Shown: piece by piece, positions 785-7,152 of the stretch | Position numbering within the stretch: the stretch's first letter is position 1 | Layout: every line of letters begins with the position of its first letter | IMG/VR virus record: IMGVR_UViG_3300030035_000037 | Coordinates: 1-7,152 of that record | DNA from: a virus | Taxonomy: Duplodnaviria > Heunggongvirae > Uroviricota > Caudoviricetes | Strand: one strand, 5' to 3' | DNA length: 7,152 nucleotides | Notes under the pieces: generated by a model | Seen by the model: the letters and a program-made list of their open reading frames with translations, nothing else | Told to the model about the DNA's origin: nothing | Database searches by the model: none | Translations under genes and position numbers: made by a program

Positions 785-2650
785 TTATGCGGCTGCTCCA
801 GCTTTGTTTGCTTTAACTTCCACCGTATCAATAAGTACAGGGTAGGTTTCTGCACTACCTGTAATATCCGTAATGACAAACCTGTTGAGTCCATTAGCAG
901 TATTGGCCCATTTCACCAGGTCAAACGCCTGTCCATCCACACCATCAAGCACCGGAGTAACATTAATGCTGTTACTGCCCTTAAATTTAAATGCAAGCGT
1001 ATGCCAGTCATGGTCGAATGCGCCAAACGTGCCAAGTTCTTTTTGTTGATTAACTGTATGATGGTATGCAACATTAATACTGGCTTTATCTGTCTGGACA
1101 AAGAAAGAACTCAGATGGCCTTCACCACCCTCACCCGGCCATTCCGCTATTCGCCAGTACAAACCAAAGGCATACTTGTTTCTGGTTGTCTCAAGATTGA
1201 CGTTTTCGGGGATTTTAAACCGGACAGCAATTTCCCCGCCTTTTTCCAGTAAAAGTTTTGCCTTGTCTGCAGCAATATCACAGTACATTGACCAGGATTT
1301 CGCGCTGTTATTTTTCTCAATTCGCAGAGCTTTATTGCCGCTGTCATCAACCAGTGTGCGTCTGCCATACATACCGTCCCAGCCATAAGGTTTCAGCTGA
1401 TTGTCTGTAGCTTTTTTGGCATCGTAAAAAATTACAGACTCTGAGGTGGTAACCGGCCTGTCTGGAACAACCACCCCGGCAGTACCATTAACAAACGCAG
1501 AAGACTTACCCGCGCAGCTCAGAATCGCCGTTGCCAGACGGTCGGAAATAATCCCACGGCGAGCCCATGAACTGAAATGGCTCGCCCTGTCCTGTGACGT
1601 CCAGGTGGCTGAGCTGTCACGCCATTTCGAACCGTAATAACCGATACCCGGAATGTCCGGGTCTTCTTCCGGTTTGTTCGTCGGCACATTCACCCCGTTC
1701 TCATCGGTCATGAACGGTACGAAATGGATATTCTTTTCCGTTTTATTTTTATAGCTGCCGTACACCGTCTGGTACGTGGATTCGTTCTTCTGCTTCCAGA
1801 AATACGTCGTGTCCCCGCATATCCAGGGAACACCGCCAGCAGAGCCACCGACGCACTGGCCTGCCATATCCGCCAGGTCTGCACGGAATTTATCAACCAG
1901 CGCACCAAACTGTGCGGCATGATTTGCCGGCGTACCGCCAAAATCAAATTCCCCCTGCATCCACACCACGGCAAACAGCACATTTTTCGGGTTCTTCTCC
2001 AGTGCCGCTTTTGTTCGACCGATAAGGTCCTTATACAGCGGCTTGTCCACACCCCAGCGGGTTGAATTCTCCGAGGCACCACTCGCGTCACTGTATGTGC
2101 CATCAGCTCCGGTGGTGAACGCTGAACCACCACGACAGCACGGAACCAGCAGAATGCCCGCATTCGCCGGTATAAACGGCAGCAGTTTTTTGGCGATATG
2201 CAGCCCCTGCCCCACGGTTCCGTACTGCCCCTTTGACAGGTCCGCTTTCGGATGGTTAAGACGGCTCATGTCCTGCACATCATGCAGACAATGGTCCGCC
2301 GGAATGATGTCGTTATATTTGCATGCTGCACCGCCCGGTGTCACCGTACTGCGACGCGCCAGTTGCTTAATACGCGGGTCCGGACGGTCATATGTCCCCG
2401 GCAGCGGAAGGCCTTCACCATACGACATGCCGTTTGACTGCCCTGCCAGAACCACAACAAAGTAATACTCCGGGTCGCTGGTGGCGCTGATTACTGCACC
2501 TTCTGCTGCAATCGCCTGCATCAGAGTATAAGGGGTTATGGCCACCGGACTACCAAACGGCTGCCAGCCCTCTTTCAGTTTATGTGTCAGCTTTTCCGCA
2601 AGATCTGACGGCGACGCCGCCCTGACAACATCATAGTGTTTAAATGCCAT
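785..2650 (-). CDS. nanS-p: Prophage-encoded sialate 9-O-acetylesterase (NanS-p type; N-terminal DUF1737-like region, SGNH/SASA esterase core, C-terminal carbohydrate-binding region)
   Basis: 621-626 aa ORF; GQSNGMSYGEG motif typical of SASA/SGNH esterases; conserved position downstream of the toxin/moron site and upstream of lysis genes in Stx-type phages. ORF-track start is 2665 (MVERTM...); ATG at 2650 (MAFKHYDVV...) is preferred because GGA lies 7 nt upstream. Confidence 0.88.
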   Translation of the reverse strand: MAFKHYDVVRAASPSDLAEKLTHKLKEGWQPFGSPVAITPYTLMQAIAAEGAVISATSDPEYYFVVVLAGQSNGMSYGEGLPLPGTYDRPDPRIKQLARRSTVTPGGAACKYNDIIPADHCLHDVQDMSRLNHPKADLSKGQYGTVGQGLHIAKKLLPFIPANAGILLVPCCRGGSAFTTGADGTYSDASGASENSTRWGVDKPLYKDLIGRTKAALEKNPKNVLFAVVWMQGEFDFGGTPANHAAQFGALVDKFRADLADMAGQCVGGSAGGVPWICGDTTYFWKQKNESTYQTVYGSYKNKTEKNIHFVPFMTDENGVNVPTNKPEEDPDIPGIGYYGSKWRDSSATWTSQDRASHFSSWARRGIISDRLATAILSCAGKSSAFVNGTAGVVVPDRPVTTSESVIFYDAKKATDNQLKPYGWDGMYGRRTLVDDSGNKALRIEKNNSAKSWSMYCDIAADKAKLLLEKGGEIAVRFKIPENVNLETTRNKYAFGLYWRIAEWPGEGGEGHLSSFFVQTDKASINVAYHHTVNQQKELGTFGAFDHDWHTLAFKFKGSNSINVTPVLDGVDGQAFDLVKWANTANGLNRFVITDITGSAETYPVLIDTVEVKANKAGAAA

Positions 2651-2843
2651 GGTTCTTTCCACCATCTGAAAAATGATTCTTTAAAATACCTGACATGTAA
2701 TACAGAAAAAACACAAAACCATACCTTAAATAAAAACCTCATCATCAAGCAGATATGCATGGATAAACTACAAGACGAGATATAAACCACCCTGCATTTA
2801 AATAAACAATAAACAACATCAGAAAAATAATTCTGCTCTATGG

Positions 2844-2870
2844 TTTACATTCAAAAATATCATTTATACT
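2844..2870 (+). promoter_or_regulatory. Candidate sigma70 promoter for the plus-strand cargo ORF
   Basis: -35 TTTACA (2844-2849) and -10 TATACT (2865-2870); spacer is 15 nt, which is short, so this is a weak call. Confidence 0.3.
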
Positions 2871-2910
2871 TTTCAGAACATCACCAGCAATGCATAAACA
2901 AGGAAACCAA

Positions 2911-3246
2911 ATGAAGTGGATTGTGATTGATACAGTTATCCAGCCATCATGCGGAATATCTTTTTCAGTCATATGGAGTAAAATAAAATTAATAATCTGG
3001 TATCAATCGGATGCTTTCTTACCTCCTGAAAGTATATTTACACTGACTCACACAGGCATCATGCTCAATAACAAAGTGCTACCTGTAACCATTTACAACG
3101 TAGTACCATTCAATAAAACATTCTGGAATTTAATCAAAAACAGCCAGGAATGCCCTACAAATACAGATAACGTATTGAATGAATGCTTTAATAACCGTTG
3201 CACTCTGCAAATATGTCCTTATGGGCTAAAACAACAAAGTCCATAA
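2911..3246 (+). CDS. Orphan hypothetical protein (111 aa) in an AT-rich island, opposite strand to the phage late operon; moron/cargo gene candidate
   Basis: ATG at 2911 with AGGA 6 nt upstream (the ORF-track start at 2890 lacks a ribosome-binding site); more than 110 open codons in visibly AT-rich DNA is unlikely by chance; 6 of 13 Ile codons are the rare ATA; four Cys cluster in the C-terminal 30 residues (C-x10-C-x4-C-x4-C). No family recognised. Confidence 0.5.
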
Positions 3247-3282
3247 GGAGTTTACTCACATCTGACAAAATCAATATAAACA

Positions 3283-3302
3283 GCCCCTCCGGAGAGGGGC
3301 TG
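3283..3302. terminator. Perfect 8-bp GC-rich stem-loop bounding the AT-rich island; possible terminator or mRNA 3' stabiliser for the cargo ORF
   Basis: AGCCCCTC cgga GAGGGGCT at 3283-3302, 37 nt after the cargo ORF stop; no clean U-tract on either strand. Confidence 0.35.
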
Positions 3303-3498
3303 GAGAGTGGCGCTATGTGCCATTGCATGGTGCCGGGTGCCTCCCGGTGAATTCAGTACCAGCACCTGAATCCGCGATTATCCCATATACCTACTCGCTG
3401 ATTGCCCCTCCGCACAGGGGGATTCACCATGCCAGTTTCTTTTAACAAACTCCCCGCAAACCAGACAACAGTCAACCGCCTGAATTGTGAGACATTTA

Positions 3499-3524
3499 AA
3501 AAAAAGGCCCGCAAAAGCGAGCCA
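3499..3524 (-). terminator. Rho-independent terminator of the tRNA operon (minus strand)
   Basis: Minus-strand GGCTCGC tttt GCGGGCC (3524..3507) followed by eight U (rc of A-run 3499-3506); begins 14 nt after the 3' end of the last tRNA. Confidence 0.7.
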
Positions 3525-3537
3525 GGGAAAATAAGTG

Positions 3538-3614
3538 TGGCGCGTTGTACTGGATTCGAACCAGTGACCGATTGCTTAGAAGGCAATTGCTCTGTCCGGC
3601 TGAGCTAACAACGC
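3538..3614 (-). tRNA. argO: tRNA-Arg, anticodon TCT (reads AGA)
   Basis: Manual fold of the minus strand: 7-bp perfect acceptor GCGTTGT/ACAACGC, D-arm GCTC..GAGC, anticodon loop CTTCTAA, T-loop TTCGAAT, encoded CCA. Gene symbol assigned only from the conserved ileZ-argN-argO order of Stx-type phages, recalled from memory. Confidence 0.9.
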
Positions 3615-3628
3615 AGGATACAGATAAT

Positions 3629-3704
3629 GAACCGCCTTCGGGGACCCGAACTCCGCGCAACCAGCTTCGAAGGCTGGCGCTCTTTCCTGATGAGCTAATG
3701 GCGG
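3629..3704 (-). tRNA. argN: tRNA-Arg, anticodon TCG; atypical (possibly divergent or degenerate)
   Basis: Manual fold: acceptor CCGCCAT/AAGGCGG (6 of 7 pairs), D-arm GCTC..GAGC, anticodon stem CCAGC/GCTGG with loop CTTCGAA, T-arm CGGAG-TTCGGGT-CCCCG (one A-C mismatch, G at the usually invariant A58), 3' TCA instead of encoded CCA. Exact 3' end is uncertain (3629-3631). Confidence 0.6.
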
Positions 3705-3711
3705 TATGTGA

Positions 3712-3787
3712 TGGTGGCCCTTGCTGGATTTGAACCAGCGACCTGGCGATTATGAGTCGCTCGCTCTCACCACTGAGCTAAAGGGCC
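3712..3787 (-). tRNA. ileZ: tRNA-Ile2 type, anticodon CAT (lysidine-dependent AUA decoder); a tool may call it tRNA-Met
   Basis: Manual fold: perfect acceptor GGCCCTT/AAGGGCC, anticodon loop CTCATAA, T-loop TTCAAAT, encoded CCA; overall very close to the recalled E. coli ileX sequence. Confidence 0.88.
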
Positions 3788-3796
3788 GGGAGCAGA

Positions 3797-3825
3797 ATAA
3801 TAATGGTGCGTAATTAATTCTGCAA
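3797..3825 (-). promoter_or_regulatory. Candidate sigma70 promoter for the tRNA operon
   Basis: Minus strand: -35 TTGCAG (3825..3820), 17-nt spacer, -10 TATTAT (3802..3797); predicted start 2-4 nt upstream of the mature 5' end of the first tRNA. Confidence 0.45.
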
Positions 3826-3836
3826 TCTCATCCGTT

Positions 3837-4886
3837 TCAAACGATTAAATCCTGAACTTCCCTGACTGTCTGCTCAAAACGTCCTGTCTCCAGTTCAACG
3901 CCAATCGCACGACGCCCGAGCGCCAGTGCCGCTTTTACCGTTGAACCCGACCCCATGAAAAAATCCGCAACCAGATCACCAGGACGACTGCTTGCGCTGA
4001 TTATCTGCTGCAGCATTTCTGCCGGTTTTTCGCACGGATGTTTCCCGGGATAGAACTGCACCGGTTTATGTGTCCACACATCCGTGTACGGCACCTGCGC
4101 CGTCACACCAAAATACCGCCGCAGATGTTTATATTCACTCTGCAGCTCCGCATACTGTCGGTTCAGTGAAGTATACGTATCCACCAGCTGGTGGTGGGGC
4201 TTTTCCAGTTCCCCCCGCTGATGCTTCTCTTCTGCCACCCTGGCAAACAGTGCCTGTAATTTCAGATAATCGCTTTCGTTCGGCAACTGCCACTGACTGG
4301 CACTGAACCAGTGCGACACCATGTTTTTCTTTCCTGTGGCATCTGCAATCTGTTTTGCCGTTATCCCCAGGGCCGCGCATGCATCACGAAAGTAAGAAAT
4401 CAGCGGGGCCATCACATGCTGTTTCAGTGCCCTGCCCTTCGCCTCATACCCGGCATCTTTCGGACGATACGGCCCCTGATAATGTTCCGCGAACAGAATG
4501 CGCTCTGTGGCGGGGAAATACGCCCGCAGGCTTTCCTTGTTGCACCCGTTCCAGCGTCCGGAAGGCTTCGCCCAGATAATATGGTTCAGCACACTGAAGC
4601 GTTCACGCATCATGATTTCGATATCAGATGCCAGGCGATGACCACAGAACAGGTAAAGACTTCCGGCAGGTTTCAGCACCCGCCAGAACTGCGCCAGACA
4701 CTGGTCCAGCCACTTCAGGTAATCATCGTCGCCCTTCCACTGGTTATCCCAGCCCTCAGGCTTCACTTTAAAGTACGGCGGGTCCGTGACTATCAGGTCA
4801 ACAGAATTTTCGGGTAACGACCGGATAAATTCCAGGCAGTCGGCGTTGATTAACTCACAACTGGATATTTTTACAGTATTAAGCAT
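3837..4886 (-). CDS. DNA methyltransferase, beta-class (motif IV before motif I), predicted N6-adenine specific; orphan (no cognate nuclease in window)
   Basis: 349 aa; SVDLIVTDPPY near the N-terminus (DPPY favours N6-adenine over N4-cytosine SPPY); AdoMet motif DFFMGSGST near the C-terminus; architecture of the N6_N4_Mtase family. Weak Shine-Dalgarno; a GATC overlaps the start region at 4887-4890. Confidence 0.9.
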   Translation of the reverse strand: MLNTVKISSCELINADCLEFIRSLPENSVDLIVTDPPYFKVKPEGWDNQWKGDDDYLKWLDQCLAQFWRVLKPAGSLYLFCGHRLASDIEIMMRERFSVLNHIIWAKPSGRWNGCNKESLRAYFPATERILFAEHYQGPYRPKDAGYEAKGRALKQHVMAPLISYFRDACAALGITAKQIADATGKKNMVSHWFSASQWQLPNESDYLKLQALFARVAEEKHQRGELEKPHHQLVDTYTSLNRQYAELQSEYKHLRRYFGVTAQVPYTDVWTHKPVQFYPGKHPCEKPAEMLQQIISASSRPGDLVADFFMGSGSTVKAALALGRRAIGVELETGRFEQTVREVQDLIV

Positions 4887-4980
4887 GGATCATTAAGCCT
4901 GTCTCTGATAGGCTCATTCTGCTTTTGCGCAAAGCAGTGGGCCTGAGGTTTGCTTGTGAACCCAACGCATGAGCAGATGG

Positions 4981-5007
4981 CTGGTGGGTGCCCCTAACAC
5001 CCACCAG
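4981..5007 (-). other. Perfect 10-bp GC-rich inverted repeat with 7-nt loop in the methyltransferase 5' leader
   Basis: CTGGTGGGTG ccccTaa CACCCACCAG at 4981-5007; no U-tract on either strand, so not a canonical intrinsic terminator. Confidence 0.5.
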
Positions 5008-5026
5008 CCGCCCATTTACCACAAAT
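5008..5026 (-). repeat. Second, truncated copy of the pR' -10 core (ATTTGTGGTAAAT followed directly by GGGCGG)
   Basis: Minus strand 5026..5008 ATTTGTGGTAAATGGGCGG versus pR' (5441..5411) ATCTGTGGTAAAT-TTGCTCTAACGAT-GGGCG: 12 of 13 identical then GGGCG, with the 13-nt initial transcribed segment absent. Confidence 0.55.
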
Positions 5027-5050
5027 AAAAAAGCCTTCACTGCGGAAGGC
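5021..5050 (-). terminator. Rho-independent terminator after the small winged-helix-like ORF
   Basis: Minus strand GCCTTC cgcagt GAAGGC (5050..5033) followed by TTTTTTATTTGT (5032..5021); the ORF stop codon (5037-5039) lies inside the stem. Confidence 0.6.
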
Positions 5051-5234
5051 GTCTGTAACAACCGAACTGATAGTCTGCCAGACCCGCCATAACCAGCTGG
5101 GTCAGTATTAACTGGCAGCGTTCGCGTGAAAGGTAAGTATTCTGTGCAATCTCCCCGACTGTCGCCGGTTCGGTAACGCTTAATTCATTAAACACTACTC
5201 TGGCGGTTTCTGTCATATCCTGCTGTTTTAGCAT
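5037..5234 (-). CDS. Small hypothetical protein (65 aa) with a predicted winged-helix/HTH-like segment; possible DNA-binding regulator
   Basis: ATG at 5234 preceded by AAGGGA; ORF-track version 5037..5321 starts at a GTG and is less likely. Segment TVGEIAQNTYLSRERCQLILTQLVMAGLA has the pattern of a winged-helix recognition region (PapI/FaeA- or MarR-like); weak, pattern-only assignment. Confidence 0.45.
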   Translation of the reverse strand: MLKQQDMTETARVVFNELSVTEPATVGEIAQNTYLSRERCQLILTQLVMAGLADYQFGCYRRLPQ

Positions 5235-5354
5235 GTCTTTTTCCCTTTTCCGGTTAACGTGACACACCAATAACTCTTGTCGAAAAAGCCAGCAAGCTGA
5301 AAGACAGGTATTCACCGCCACCAGCGCGTTTACTGTACTGACGCGATTTCAGTC

Positions 5355-5378
5355 ATAAAAAACCCGCCAGGCGGCGGG
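5355..5378 (-). terminator. tR'-like Rho-independent terminator downstream of pR'
   Basis: Minus strand CCCGCC gcct GGCGGG (5378..5363) followed by TTTTTTAT (5362..5355). Confidence 0.7.
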
Positions 5379-5460: not shown

Positions 5461-6282
5461 CTATCGCGTTACCCTCTTTAACTGCCGCTCCGCCCATGCC
5501 TCTTCAATGTCAAACCGAACCACCAACGTATCGTAAAAGCGTTTCACTGATTTTTTCCACGTATCAAGCGTGATAGCACTCGTCACTTTGCATATGGCAT
5601 TAAATGCCTCCGTTGATGGTAGTCTTTCACAGCCACGACCACCACAACGCTGGCAGTCTCTGATAACAGGCATACCACGTTTTACCGACTCTTCACGATG
5701 AATGGCGACACCACGCCCACGGCAATCCTTACAGGCGGTGGAAACCTCACCCTTTCCGCCACACTCCGGACAGGCAACTTTTACCACCTCCCTGACTTTT
5801 TTCCATTCTTCCCAGTAAGACGGATACACACCTTTCGTACACTTTGCCCATACCGGCGGCTTACCATCCGGATACTGGACCTTGTTTGTAAAAACTACGC
5901 TTTCAATAAATTTTTCCCCATAGCAACAAGGGCACTGCTTTTTACTCGCTGCGCTGCGGGCATAATCCTCAAAAGCGTACGAAGCCATAATGCGCATCAC
6001 TACCGGTTTTATTTCTGCCGGGAGTTTTCTTAACGCCGCCACGCGATCACACCGACTGAGTGCATATTCTGTCAGCAATTCTGTTGCCCGCTCTCTGTCA
6101 TTCATACTAATGCCCATTTTCCCAAGGAACGCAGAAAACCCCATCTCAGCCCGATTCTGTGTCATGCCCTGCGCGGCCATCACATCAGTGATACTCAGCG
6201 CATCTTTCGACGTTGAGGCCGATGCATCAGTCAGGCCGGGGGATTTTGGGGAGTAGTATTTCGGTAAATCTTCCAGTTTCAT
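5461..6282 (-). CDS. Q: Late-gene antitermination protein Q, lambda-Q family, with an enlarged Cys-rich zinc-binding region
   Basis: 273 aa; blocks matching recalled lambda Q: YSPKSP, DVMAAQGM, ASYAFEDYARSAA, C-terminal LKRVTR; multiple CxxC pairs; located immediately upstream of the lambda-like pR'; start overlaps the rusA stop (ATGA). Confidence 0.88.
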   Translation of the reverse strand: MKLEDLPKYYSPKSPGLTDASASTSKDALSITDVMAAQGMTQNRAEMGFSAFLGKMGISMNDRERATELLTEYALSRCDRVAALRKLPAEIKPVVMRIMASYAFEDYARSAASKKQCPCCYGEKFIESVVFTNKVQYPDGKPPVWAKCTKGVYPSYWEEWKKVREVVKVACPECGGKGEVSTACKDCRGRGVAIHREESVKRGMPVIRDCQRCGGRGCERLPSTEAFNAICKVTSAITLDTWKKSVKRFYDTLVVRFDIEEAWAERQLKRVTR

Positions 6283-6659
6283 TTTTTGACCTGCCCTTCA
6301 AGCATTATGGGGTAAATCTTCACCCCCAGACGTCCACCAGATACTGGCTGAGCACGAACGATATTGATTTCATCAAACTGCTCATCGTCCATTAGCAACC
6401 CCGCATGCGTCAGCGCATCCAGCGGCGCTTTCAGAATATTGTCCAGGTCACGGCGGCGCTTATCCGGTGGTTCTGCAATAATTTTTATTGCCAACCTTCC
6501 GGACAGGCTTAATTTCAGCCGCTGCTGGCGAACAATAAGCGCCACTGCCCGGCGATAACGCTCCCCGGCTTTTGATACAAAATATGTGCTGCCACGACGA
6601 CGCCAGTAAGTGTTCACCGTTGGCGGGTAAGGCAAAACAAATTCTATGCGTTCAGTCAT
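6279..6659 (-). CDS. rusA: Crossover junction endodeoxyribonuclease RusA (Holliday junction resolvase)
   Basis: 126 aa; PYPPTVNTYWRRRG near the N-terminus and RRRDLDNILKAPLDALTHAGLLMDD acidic catalytic region match the RusA family pattern; canonical position just upstream of Q. Confidence 0.88.
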   Translation of the reverse strand: MTERIEFVLPYPPTVNTYWRRRGSTYFVSKAGERYRRAVALIVRQQRLKLSLSGRLAIKIIAEPPDKRRRDLDNILKAPLDALTHAGLLMDDEQFDEINIVRAQPVSGGRLGVKIYPIMLEGQVKK

Positions 6660-7152
6660 TTATGCTTTCCACTTCAAAACACCCGAATTTCTCGCGTGCA
6701 TTAAAAAACGAATCAGCAACAACAGCTGGCTGCCGTGTTTTTCTTCAAAATCTTTTACCCCGGCGTGTAGTTCGCTATGGCATTTACGGCACAGCGGAAT
6801 AACAAACAAATCATCAGCCTTTGTTCCCATCCCTCCCAGTCCATGACCAATGATGTGATGCGGATCATCTGCCTGATTGCCACACGTCATGCATTTCTGC
6901 GTTTTTACCCAACGCGTGTATACAGGCATCTCTTCCCGTTGTGATTTCTGGCGCTGGAGATACTGAGCCGGTGACTCCGGATCAACGGCAATGCTGACCA
7001 CCGTCTTTTCCTGTGGCGGGTTTTGCTGGTGGGCGTGAGGCAGCGGCGCAAGATTTTTTGTGCGCTGCTTCAGTATGCTGGTGGCGGTCTGCTCTCCCGG
7101 TACGATGTCGCTTTCACGGTACATTGAGCGGATTTTTTCCGCACGCAACCCC
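6660..7152 (-). CDS. Cys/His-rich HNH-motif protein (DUF968/YdfU-like), C-terminal part; likely continues beyond the window end
   Basis: Frame is open to the right window edge; C-terminal motif CMTCGNQADDPHHIIGHG...IPLCRKCHSELH (CxxC ... HH ... CxxCH) resembles an HNH zinc-binding nuclease fold; stop TAA abuts the rusA ATG. Family name is from memory and unverified. Confidence 0.55.
   Translation of the reverse strand, partial: GLRAEKIRSMYRESDIVPGEQTATSILKQRTKNLAPLPHAHQQNPPQEKTVVSIAVDPESPAQYLQRQKSQREEMPVYTRWVKTQKCMTCGNQADDPHHIIGHGLGGMGTKADDLFVIPLCRKCHSELHAGVKDFEEKHGSQLLLLIRFLMHARNSGVLKWKA

What the first reader, a model, noticed from the sequence alone, without database searches (positions are those of the whole stretch)
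2651..3305. AT-rich cargo island with an orphan, AUA-rich, opposite-strand ORF at the toxin/moron hotspot
Between the tRNA operon and the esterase, where Stx phages carry stxAB, there is a roughly 600-bp island that is visibly much more AT-rich than its flanks. Its only substantial ORF (2911-3246, 111 aa) is on the plus strand, antisense to the whole late operon. It has its own AGGA ribosome-binding site, a candidate promoter and a perfect 8-bp hairpin after the stop. Six of its 13 Ile codons are ATA, the codon read by the Ile2-type tRNA encoded about 500 bp away. The protein has a C-terminal four-Cys cluster and no family I can recognise. An independently expressed gene of unknown function in a known virulence/moron slot is the best candidate here for something undescribed.
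Basis: partly seen in the sequence, partly recalled or inferred. Interest (0 to 1): 0.75.

Follow-up and report, generated by a model that had tools for sequence, protein, structure and literature searches.

The report
Known RpoS-stabiliser gene iraL in prophage
The "orphan" gene is iraL, an already characterised small protein that protects the stress sigma factor RpoS from degradation; it sits as an AT-rich, self-transcribed cargo gene in a lambda-like prophage beside the place where Shiga toxin genes insert.

Summary
The island (2666-3280) is 32% GC against 51% for the rest of the window. It holds a plus-strand 111-codon ORF (2911-3246) with an AGGA ribosome-binding site, 6 ATA among 13 Ile codons, four C-terminal Cys and a perfect hairpin 34 nt after the stop.

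The ORF is not an orphan. Its product is 100% identical to IraL of uropathogenic E. coli CFT073 (c1429). The island occurs in 1446 of 5426 complete E. coli genomes.

Three points of the interpretation fail:
- ATA richness is what the base composition predicts (5.6 expected). K-12 iraM, which has no tRNA neighbour, shows the same bias.
- The hairpin is the intrinsic terminator of a convergent, known sRNA (Rfam STnc100, 3461-3272, minus strand).
- stx2AB inserts at 3494/3497, next to the island rather than in it.

Verdict: already known, low interest. One thread remains open: the four tail Cys are the most conserved residues of the whole IraM/IraL family, yet they are absent from the only crystal structure.

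The parts
2666..2910 (+). AT-rich (29% GC) divergent intergenic region between the esterase start codon and iraL; it holds the iraL promoter and 5' UTR
   Evidence: Composition. About 97% identical to the CFT073 iraL upstream region, with 7 differences in 245 bp.
2844..2870 (+). Likely sigma-70 promoter: -35-like TTTACA (2844-2849), a 15-nt spacer, and -10 TATACT (2865-2870)
   Evidence: Hexamer positions. The -10 lies 7 nt upstream of the RACE start. The consensus scan, which requires a 16-18 nt spacer, did not call this promoter. The hexamer assignment is my inference; the published figure is not held.
2878..2910 (+). iraL 5' UTR, from the transcription start (2878) to the start codon; AGGA Shine-Dalgarno at 2901-2904. 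A T at 2891, specific to this window, creates an in-frame ATG at 2890
   Evidence: PMC4045071 gives the mRNA 5' end as ACATCACCAGCAAGGCATAAACAAGGAAACCA. The window matches it with one mismatch.
2911..3246 (+). iraL coding sequence, 111 aa: an RssB anti-adaptor of the IraM/IraL family
   Evidence: 100% identical to CFT073 IraL WP_000871291.1. 62% identical to K-12 IraM. NF007393 at 162 bits. PDB 8TWD at E = 9e-32. The structure model superposes on 8TWD with target-normalised TM 0.91.
3151..3225 (+). C-terminal Cys4 tail (residues 81-105: C81, C92, C97, C102, then P-Y-G)
   Evidence: C81, C97 and C102 are invariant and C92 is present in 42 of 43 family representatives, down to 20% identity. With the 43-sequence alignment the tail reaches pLDDT 65-81.
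3281..3302 (.). Perfect 9-bp hairpin with a 4-nt loop, shared by the convergent iraL and sRNA transcription units. The U-tract lies only on the minus strand (3280-3272)
   Evidence: Terminator scan. It forms the terminal stem of the Rfam STnc100 match. It is invariant in two Stx2 phages, including one that lacks any iraL-like gene.
3272..3461 (-). STnc100-family small RNA gene (Rfam RF02076), convergent with iraL
   Evidence: cmscan gives 132.4 bits against a gathering score of 47, E = 7.8e-30, covering the full model 1-206. The segment lies directly downstream of stx2B in Stx2 phages (PMC12370729).
3494..3497 (.). Junction where Stx2 phages carry the 1.3-kb stx2AB cassette
   Evidence: In blastn, window 1509-3494 and 3497-5377 align to LC567840 positions 3036-5045 and 6378-8260. 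The 1332 bp between them hold stx2B and stx2A.
3538..3787 (-). Context: phage tRNA cluster (Ile2-type with CAT anticodon, Arg-TCG, Arg-TCT), followed by a terminator-like site at 3506-3523
   Evidence: ARAGORN, Rfam and the terminator scan. The CAT tRNA is identical to the CFT073 gene annotated tRNA-Ile.
785..2665 (-). Context: NanS-p-type sialate O-acetylesterase (DUF1737 + SASA + DUF6645), divergent from iraL
   Evidence: Pfam scan. It is annotated yjhS or SASA esterase in related prophages.

Best explanation
The ORF at 2911-3246 is iraL. Its product binds the response-regulator-like adaptor RssB. RssB then cannot hand the stress sigma factor RpoS to the ClpXP protease, so RpoS accumulates even during exponential growth.

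The gene is a prophage moron. It is an AT-rich cassette with its own sigma-70 promoter (start at 2878), transcribed in the lysogen against the direction of the late operon. It is inserted between the NanS-p esterase gene and a convergent STnc100-family sRNA, whose terminator hairpin lies 34 nt past the iraL stop.

[quoted passage not shown] Inferred here: that this window's copy behaves the same way, and that iraL transcription ends at or near the shared hairpin.
For: - Protein identity: 111/111 to CFT073 IraL.
- DNA identity: the region from the esterase start to 3490 is about 98-99% identical to CFT073, and the coding sequence has a single synonymous difference.
- Family score: NCBIfam NF007393 'anti-adapter protein IraM', 162 bits against a cut-off of 121.
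- Solved relative: PDB 8TWD (IraM bound to RssB), E = 9e-32 over residues 1-78.
- Fold: the AlphaFold model matches 8TWD (target-normalised TM 0.91, rmsd 1.2 A) and then PmrD 4HN7.
- Interface: 10 of the 14 IraM residues listed as contacting RssB in PMC10844676 are identical in IraL. The other four are T13S, L75I, H63N and I64V.
- Published function: PMC4045071 reports the 5'-RACE start, RpoS stabilisation in log phase, and two-hybrid and copurification evidence for binding to the RssB N-terminal domain.
- Published expression: iraL (c1429) mRNA rises 1.6 log2 on a shift to 37 C (PMC12890032), and IraL levels are higher in CFT073 lacking Fur (PMC7157518).
- Distribution: 1446 of 5426 complete E. 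coli genomes carry the island at 90% identity or more, and 1384 of them keep the whole 1-kb module of esterase N-terminus, iraL and sRNA.
- Intact homologs: diverged relatives (53-89% identity) keep an intact reading frame.
Against: - Nothing was measured in the strain this window comes from.
- Two promoter-proximal SNPs differ from CFT073, at position -1 (2877) and at +14 (2891). The second creates an upstream in-frame ATG whose use is unknown.
- The best -35 hexamer has an unusual 15-nt spacer, and the consensus promoter scan did not call this promoter.
- The hairpin has no U-tract on the plus strand, so the 3' end of the iraL transcript is not established.
- Pfam-A gives no match, even at E = 10.
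Confidence: 0.95

Rival explanations
1. The gene acts like K-12 IraM rather than CFT073 IraL. It would be induced by PhoP/PhoQ under Mg2+ starvation and would contact both domains of RssB.
For: RefSeq names every copy 'anti-adapter protein IraM'. The protein is 62% identical to IraM, and the core fold is the same. One PhoP-box-like site, TGTTTATTGTTTATTTA, lies at 2799-2815 (-), 63-79 nt upstream of the transcription start, with one mismatch.
Against: The protein is identical to IraL, not IraM. blastn finds similarity to K-12 iraM only within the coding region, 2908-3230, so the promoters are unrelated. The PhoP-like site is not significant: 24 of 200 shuffles give at least one such site in the window, and the local sequence is AT-rich. 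IraL was reported to bind only the RssB N-terminal domain and to act in log phase.
Confidence: 0.1
2. Expression of the ORF is coupled to the neighbouring phage tRNA-Ile2 gene, which would supply decoding capacity for its many AUA codons.
For: Six of 13 Ile codons are ATA. That compares with 14 of 76 in the window's minus-strand genes. A tRNA with a CAT anticodon, annotated as tRNA-Ile, lies 466 bp away.
Against: With third-position frequencies A:T:C of 41:32:23 in this ORF, 5.6 ATA codons are expected, and P(at least 6) is 0.51. K-12 iraM has 8 of 18 ATA codons, and no tRNA gene is annotated within the 8 kb examined around it. The DA33133 prophage carries the same island with a tRNA set that differs in number, one Arg and one Ile. 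The bias therefore follows AT content.
Confidence: 0.05
3. The ORF is a decaying or non-functional remnant, or a chance ORF in AT-rich spacer DNA.
For: It is short, AT-rich, has no Pfam match and lies antisense to the operon.
Against: The frame is intact in all 16 aligned family members, whose identity to the window protein runs from 53% to 89%. It is also intact in 43 representatives down to 20% identity, which keep invariant Trp and Cys positions. The difference from CFT073 within the coding sequence is synonymous. Function has been demonstrated experimentally.
Confidence: 0.01
4. The protein is a PmrD-like connector that acts on a response regulator other than RssB, for example by protecting phospho-PmrA.
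For: The core fold matches PmrD structures: 4HN7, 2JSO and 2RQX, with target-normalised TM 0.70-0.73. The database's precomputed domain list tags the family with PF11183, which from my own knowledge is the PmrD family.
Against: Identity to PmrD is only 14-20%. My own Pfam scan finds no match even at E = 10. Direct RssB binding has been shown for IraL and seen in a crystal for IraM.
Confidence: 0.03

Closest known systems
IraL of uropathogenic E. coli CFT073 (c1429; Hryckowian et al. 2014, PMC4045071)
   Same: The protein is identical, 111/111. The promoter, 5' UTR and flanks are near-identical. The neighbours are the same: tRNA Ile-Arg-Arg, a DUF1737/esterase gene and the holin region of a lambdoid prophage.
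   Different: The window has SNPs at 2877 and 2891, and the second creates an upstream in-frame ATG. The esterase is full-length here but truncated in CFT073. CFT073 has an IS200 and a DUF3927 gene between Q and iraL, whereas the window has a DNA methylase.
IraM (YcgW) of E. coli K-12, the PhoP-induced anti-adaptor; structure 8TWD
   Same: 62% identical over 107 aa. Same beta-barrel core, same Cys4 tail, and similarly AT-rich and ATA-rich.
   Different: The promoter and chromosomal context differ: K-12 iraM lies next to the e14 end and icdC. IraM is reported to contact both RssB domains and to respond to Mg2+ starvation. IraL is reported to contact only the N-terminal domain and to act in log phase.
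IraL/IraM paralog of Stx2a, Stx2c and Stx2k converting phages (for example LC567840, phage 2851, phage 1717)
   Same: 72-74% identical to IraL. In LC567840 it lies at the same site and in the same antisense orientation, between the STnc100 segment and the yjhS/nanS-p esterase.
   Different: It is 107 aa and coexists with stx2AB. It is unannotated in most GenBank records. I found no functional study of it in the library searched.
AsxR/AgvB-type anti-sRNA morons 3' of stx2B (Tree et al. 2014, PMC4104026)
   Same: Same architecture: a cargo gene antisense to the late operon, convergent with an sRNA just downstream of the stx slot. In LC567818 the segment that replaces iraL ends in a plus-strand terminator directly beside the shared hairpin.
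   Different: Here the cargo is a protein-coding gene. Rfam finds no AsxR or AgvB match in the window at E up to 1.
PmrD connector proteins (PDB 4HN7, 2JSO, 2RQX)
   Same: Same small antiparallel beta-barrel plus helix, and the same logic of a small protein that binds a response-regulator receiver domain.
   Different: Only 14-20% identity. PmrD structures are 81-88 residues and align only to the core. IraL targets RssB; from my own knowledge PmrD targets PmrA.

Membership tests
IraM/IraL/RssC anti-adaptor family | Sequence scores above the curated family threshold (NCBIfam NF007393) | tested here: met
   162 bits against a cut-off of 121, aligned 1-110 of the protein to 1-113 of 114 profile positions.
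IraM/IraL/RssC anti-adaptor family | Beta-barrel, beta-hairpin and helix core, as in the IraM crystal structure | tested here: met
   phmmer against 8TWD gives E = 9e-32. The AlphaFold model superposes on 8TWD_A with target-normalised TM 0.91 and rmsd 1.2 A over 78 columns. Core pLDDT is 90-97 with the 43-sequence alignment.
IraM/IraL/RssC anti-adaptor family | Conservation of the residues that contact RssB in the IraM-RssB structure (clusters I-III) | tested here: met
   I4, I6, W22, K26, I42, C14, F18, W30, I61 and Y62 are identical. T13S, L75I, H63N and I64V are substituted (alignment; residue list from PMC10844676).
IraM/IraL/RssC anti-adaptor family | Binds RssB and stabilises RpoS against ClpXP | not testable with these tools
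   Shown experimentally for the identical CFT073 protein (PMC4045071). Not measured for this strain.
IraL subtype (as opposed to IraM) | At least 95% nucleotide identity to CFT073 iraL with a conserved promoter region, the criterion used in PMC4045071 | tested here: met
   One synonymous difference in 336 bp. The upstream 245 bp has 7 differences. The -10 hexamer is identical, and the window base matching the RACE start is unchanged.
Lambdoid prophage moron | Own promoter and a transcript made in the lysogen; composition unlike the flanks; located in the region downstream of Q; present or absent between conserved flanks | tested here: met
   RACE start in uninduced log-phase CFT073. 32% against 51% GC. 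It lies between Q/tRNAs and the esterase and lysis genes. Prophages with both flanks but no iraL exist: LC567818 and many O157 genomes.
Rfam RF02076 STnc100 sRNA (the neighbour that owns the hairpin) | Covariance-model score above the gathering threshold over the full model, with a terminal stem-loop and U-tract | tested here: met
   132.4 bits against 47, model positions 1-206 of 206, at 3461-3272 (-). The terminator scan finds the same hairpin followed by TTTATATTGA on the minus strand.
Pfam PF11183 (from my own knowledge, the PmrD family) | Match to the Pfam model | tested here: not met
   hmmscan returns no family for IraL or K-12 IraM, even at E = 10. A precomputed tag lists PF11183 for the homologs. 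The similarity is visible only at the level of fold.

The most novel reading that the evidence does not exclude
The C-terminal tail of IraL/IraM (C81-x10-C92-x4-C97-x4-C102-P-Y-G) may be a conserved Cys4 metal-binding or redox-sensing module that controls the stability or activity of the anti-adaptor, rather than a flexible, poorly conserved appendage.

- Across 43 family representatives down to 20% identity, the only invariant residues are W72, C81, C97 and C102. C92 and P103 are each present in 42 of 43.
- The tail was removed for the only crystal structure because it is proteolytically unstable. It was described there as less conserved and flexible.
- With a diverse alignment AlphaFold gives the tail pLDDT 65-81.
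- A tail-only profile finds only non-significant resemblance to CCCH zinc fingers, E = 0.4-10.
- Searches of the held library for IraM together with 'zinc' or 'cysteine' turned up no paper that discusses these residues.
Probability: 0.3. Interest if true: 0.4.

Novelty: already known. Interest (0 to 1): 0.12.

Why it matters
iraL changes how much RpoS a strain holds during growth. It therefore shapes stress tolerance in uropathogenic E. coli, Shigella and other strains, and that role has already been published.

This analysis adds bookkeeping, not discovery:
- it gives the exact anatomy of the cassette beside the stx insertion point;
- it shows that the cassette shares a terminator hairpin with the STnc100-family sRNA;
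- it shows that a paralog rides next to stx2 in many Stx2a/Stx2c phages, mostly unannotated;
- it shows that the family's four tail cysteines are its most conserved residues.

The last two are cheap, testable leads for anyone working on RpoS control in pathogenic E. coli.

Tried and rejected
- **Pfam scans.** The ORF gave nothing at E 0.01 or at E 10. The family was found through NCBIfam and genome annotation instead.
- **Promoter scan.** The consensus scan missed the experimentally mapped iraL promoter and proposed two other plus-strand sites (2803-2831 and 2962-2989). Its hit count was no better than in shuffles, so I disregard those sites.
- **PhoP box.** The search gave one 1-mismatch site upstream of iraL, at chance level. 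In K-12 the same pattern gave only 2-mismatch sites upstream of iraM, also at chance level. The pattern test therefore cannot decide.
- **First structure prediction.** With 15 close homologs the tail had pLDDT below 50. This reflected the shallow alignment, because 43 diverse sequences raised it to 65-81. Coordinates are not returned, so Cys-Cys distances could not be measured.
- **Tail-only profile against PDB sequences.** No significant hit.
- **Whole-window search.** No complete E. coli genome or phage record holds the whole 7.1-kb window collinearly. Best coverage was 86% at 89% identity, so the source strain was not identified and the prophage is a mosaic.
- **Literature search for iraM, stx and prophage.** No study of the Stx-phage paralog was found.
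- **Toxin or effector cargo.** The idea that the island holds a stx-like cargo was rejected once the ORF was identified.

Full report
**What the window is.** The minus strand carries the late-regulatory region of a lambdoid, Stx-phage-like prophage. In order it holds:
- a DUF968/HNH protein (6660-7148);
- RusA (6279-6659);
- a Q antiterminator (5461-6282);
- a DNA methylase (3837-4886);
- three tRNAs (3538-3787);
- a NanS-p-type sialate esterase with DUF1737, SASA and DUF6645 domains (785-2665);
- DUF1378 and DUF826 proteins.

The finding covers the gap between the tRNAs and the esterase.

**Checking the observation.** The features are all there.
- The interval 2666-3280 is 32% GC, and 2666-2910 is 29%. 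The remainder of the window is 51%.
- The largest ORF in the interval is on the plus strand, 2911-3246, 111 aa. The mechanical ORF list starts it at an in-frame ATG at 2890.
- AGGA is at 2901-2904.
- Six of the 13 Ile codons are ATA.
- Four Cys sit at residues 81, 92, 97 and 102.
- A perfect 9-bp hairpin with a 4-nt loop lies at 3281-3302, 34 nt after the stop.
- The tRNA that ARAGORN calls Met(CAT) is 76/76 identical to the CFT073 gene that RefSeq annotates as tRNA-Ile.

**What the ORF is.**
- A megablast of the 655-bp interval hits 1446 of 5426 complete E. coli genomes at 90% identity or more. In every listed record the feature under the match is annotated 'anti-adapter protein IraM'.
- The protein scores 162 bits on NCBIfam NF007393, whose cut-off is 121.
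- It matches the crystallised IraM fragment 8TWD at E = 9e-32.
- It is 62% identical to K-12 IraM and 111/111 identical to the CFT073 protein WP_000871291.1.
- That CFT073 gene is iraL (c1429), described by Hryckowian et al. 2014 (PMC4045071). IraL is a paralog of IraM, 58.9% identical by their count. [quoted passage not shown]
- The gene lies on the potB island, which RefSeq annotation shows to be a lambdoid prophage.
- The paper's 5'-RACE sequence, ACATCACCAGCAAGGCATAAACAAGGAAACCA, matches window 2878-2909 with one mismatch.
- A -10 hexamer TATACT lies at 2865-2870, and a -35-like TTTACA lies 15 nt further upstream. The hexamer assignment is my inference.
- Later RNA-seq and proteomic papers report regulated iraL expression: up on a shift to 37 C, and up in a fur mutant.

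There is a transcript, the homologs keep the reading frame, and the gene is not a remnant.

**How it works.** By identity with the studied protein, IraL binds RssB and prevents delivery of RpoS to ClpXP.
- Of the 14 IraM residues listed as contacting RssB in the IraM-RssB structure paper, 10 are identical in IraL and 4 are conservatively changed.
- The AlphaFold model superposes on 8TWD with target-normalised TM 0.91. The next best matches are PmrD structures, as the structure paper also reported.

**The ATA / tRNA idea.** The count is right, but the inference is not needed.
- The ORF's third positions are A 41, T 32, C 23 and G 16. ATA is therefore expected for 43% of Ile codons, which is 5.6 of 13, and P(at least 6) is 0.51.
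- K-12 iraM has 8 ATA among 18 Ile codons, and no tRNA gene is annotated within the 8 kb examined around it. The Stx2-phage paralog has 7 of 15.
- The bias follows AT content.

**The hairpin.** Its T-run (TTTATATTGA) lies on the minus strand. The plus strand continues GGAGAGTGG.
- An Rfam search places a full-length STnc100 sRNA (RF02076) at 3461-3272 on the minus strand, at 132 bits against a gathering score of 47 (E = 8e-30). The hairpin is the terminal stem of that match.
- The hairpin and several internal blocks are invariant in two Stx2 phages, where this segment follows stx2B. That agrees with a report placing STnc100 75 nt downstream of the stx2 operon (PMC12370729).
- It also agrees with Tree et al. 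2014, who describe convergent sRNAs 3' of stx2B at this moron site (PMC4104026).
- iraL and the sRNA are thus convergent and share one hairpin. Whether the hairpin also stops iraL transcription is not known.

**The stx slot.** I aligned the window to two Stx2a phages with blastn.
- In LC567840 (Stx2_EH1846), window 1509-3494 and 3497-5377 are collinear with the phage. The 1332 bp between them carry stx2B and stx2A. The toxin cassette therefore inserts at 3494/3497, between the tRNA terminator and the sRNA, and not in the AT-rich island.
- That phage also has a 107-aa gene at the iraL position and in the same orientation. It is 73% identical to IraL.
- In LC567818 (Stx2_14040) the iraL segment is absent. 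A different 434-bp stretch takes its place and ends in a plus-strand terminator next to the shared hairpin, the position of AsxR-type anti-sRNAs.
- In complete genomes, 1384 of the 1446 iraL carriers keep the contiguous 1-kb module of esterase N-terminus, iraL and sRNA. Many O157-type genomes have both flanks without iraL.
- A tblastn of IraL against 50,697 phage records finds 46 with a family member. Four are near-identical IraL in non-Stx phages. Forty-one are the 72-74% paralog in Stx2a, Stx2c and Stx2k phages, and most of those are unannotated.

**The cysteines.** A full HMMER search of 1.84 billion representatives with a family profile found 95 proteins.
- In an alignment of 43 full-length representatives, down to 20% identity, the only invariant columns are W72, C81, C97 and C102. 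C92 and P103 are each present in 42 of 43.
- The tail consensus is C-P-G-N-x7-C-x5-C-x-F-x2-C-P-Y-G.
- The IraM structure paper removed residues 79-107 as proteolytically unstable, and called the tail less conserved and flexible. It mentions no cysteine or zinc in IraM.
- With 15 close sequences AlphaFold gave the tail pLDDT below 50. With 43 diverse sequences it gave 65-81.
- A tail-only profile finds only non-significant CCCH zinc-finger resemblances.
- A metal-binding or redox role is therefore a reasonable but untested lead.

**Verdict.** The interpretation as an undescribed orphan is wrong. This is iraL, a known and experimentally characterised anti-adaptor gene, carried as a prophage moron next to the stx insertion point. 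Novelty: already known. Interest is low. The minor leads are the Cys4 tail, the Stx2-phage paralog and the terminator shared with STnc100.

Noticed in passing
window 3272-3461 (-): A full-length STnc100-family sRNA gene (Rfam RF02076, 132 bits) lies convergent with iraL. The same segment follows stx2B in Stx2 phages.
   Followed up: yes
window 3494-3497: This is the exact junction where Stx2 phages (for example LC567840 and LC567818) carry the roughly 1.3-kb stx2AB cassette. The window is an 'empty' stx site flanked by the tRNA terminator and the sRNA.
   Followed up: yes
L004 (LC567840) 4466-4789 (+); 41 phage records: A 107-aa IraL/IraM paralog (72-74% identical to IraL) occurs in Stx2a, Stx2c and Stx2k phages, including 2851, 1717 and the Stx2c series. 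In LC567840 it sits antisense between the sRNA and yjhS. It is unannotated in most records, and no functional study was found in the library searched.
   Followed up: partly
window 3151-3225 (IraL residues 81-105): The four tail Cys are the most conserved residues of the whole family (43 representatives, down to 20% identity). The tail is nevertheless missing from the only crystal structure and was described there as poorly conserved.
   Followed up: partly
window 2890-2892 (SNP at 2891) and 2877: A G-to-T change relative to CFT073 creates an in-frame ATG 7 codons upstream of the iraL start, 13 nt from the transcription start and with no Shine-Dalgarno before it. A second SNP lies at position -1. 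Their frequency among strains and their effect are unknown.
   Followed up: partly
window 2799-2815 (-): A PhoP-box-like direct repeat, TGTTTATTGTTTATTTA (one mismatch), lies 63-79 nt upstream of the iraL start. It is at chance level: 0.13 such sites are expected per window, and 24 of 200 shuffles have at least one.
   Followed up: partly
window 3317-3445 (+): A 42-codon GTG ORF lies inside the sRNA segment. RefSeq marks the CFT073 and DA33133 equivalents as an incomplete pseudogene. It is probably an annotation artefact laid over the STnc100 RNA.
   Followed up: no
window 3506-3523 (-): A second terminator-like hairpin (GGCTCGC...GCGGGCC followed by T8) lies directly after the last tRNA-Arg. 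It would separate the tRNA cluster from the sRNA and the stx site.
   Followed up: no
L005 (LC567818) about 3900-3935 (+): In an Stx2a phage without iraL, the replaced segment ends in a plus-strand intrinsic terminator (GCCCGCG...CGCGGGC followed by T6) that abuts the shared hairpin. This is the arrangement expected for an AsxR-type anti-sRNA.
   Followed up: partly
whole window: No complete E. coli genome or phage record holds the 7.1-kb window collinearly; the best is 86% coverage at 89% identity. This combination of Q, methylase, tRNA, iraL and esterase modules is a mosaic not represented in those collections.
   Followed up: no
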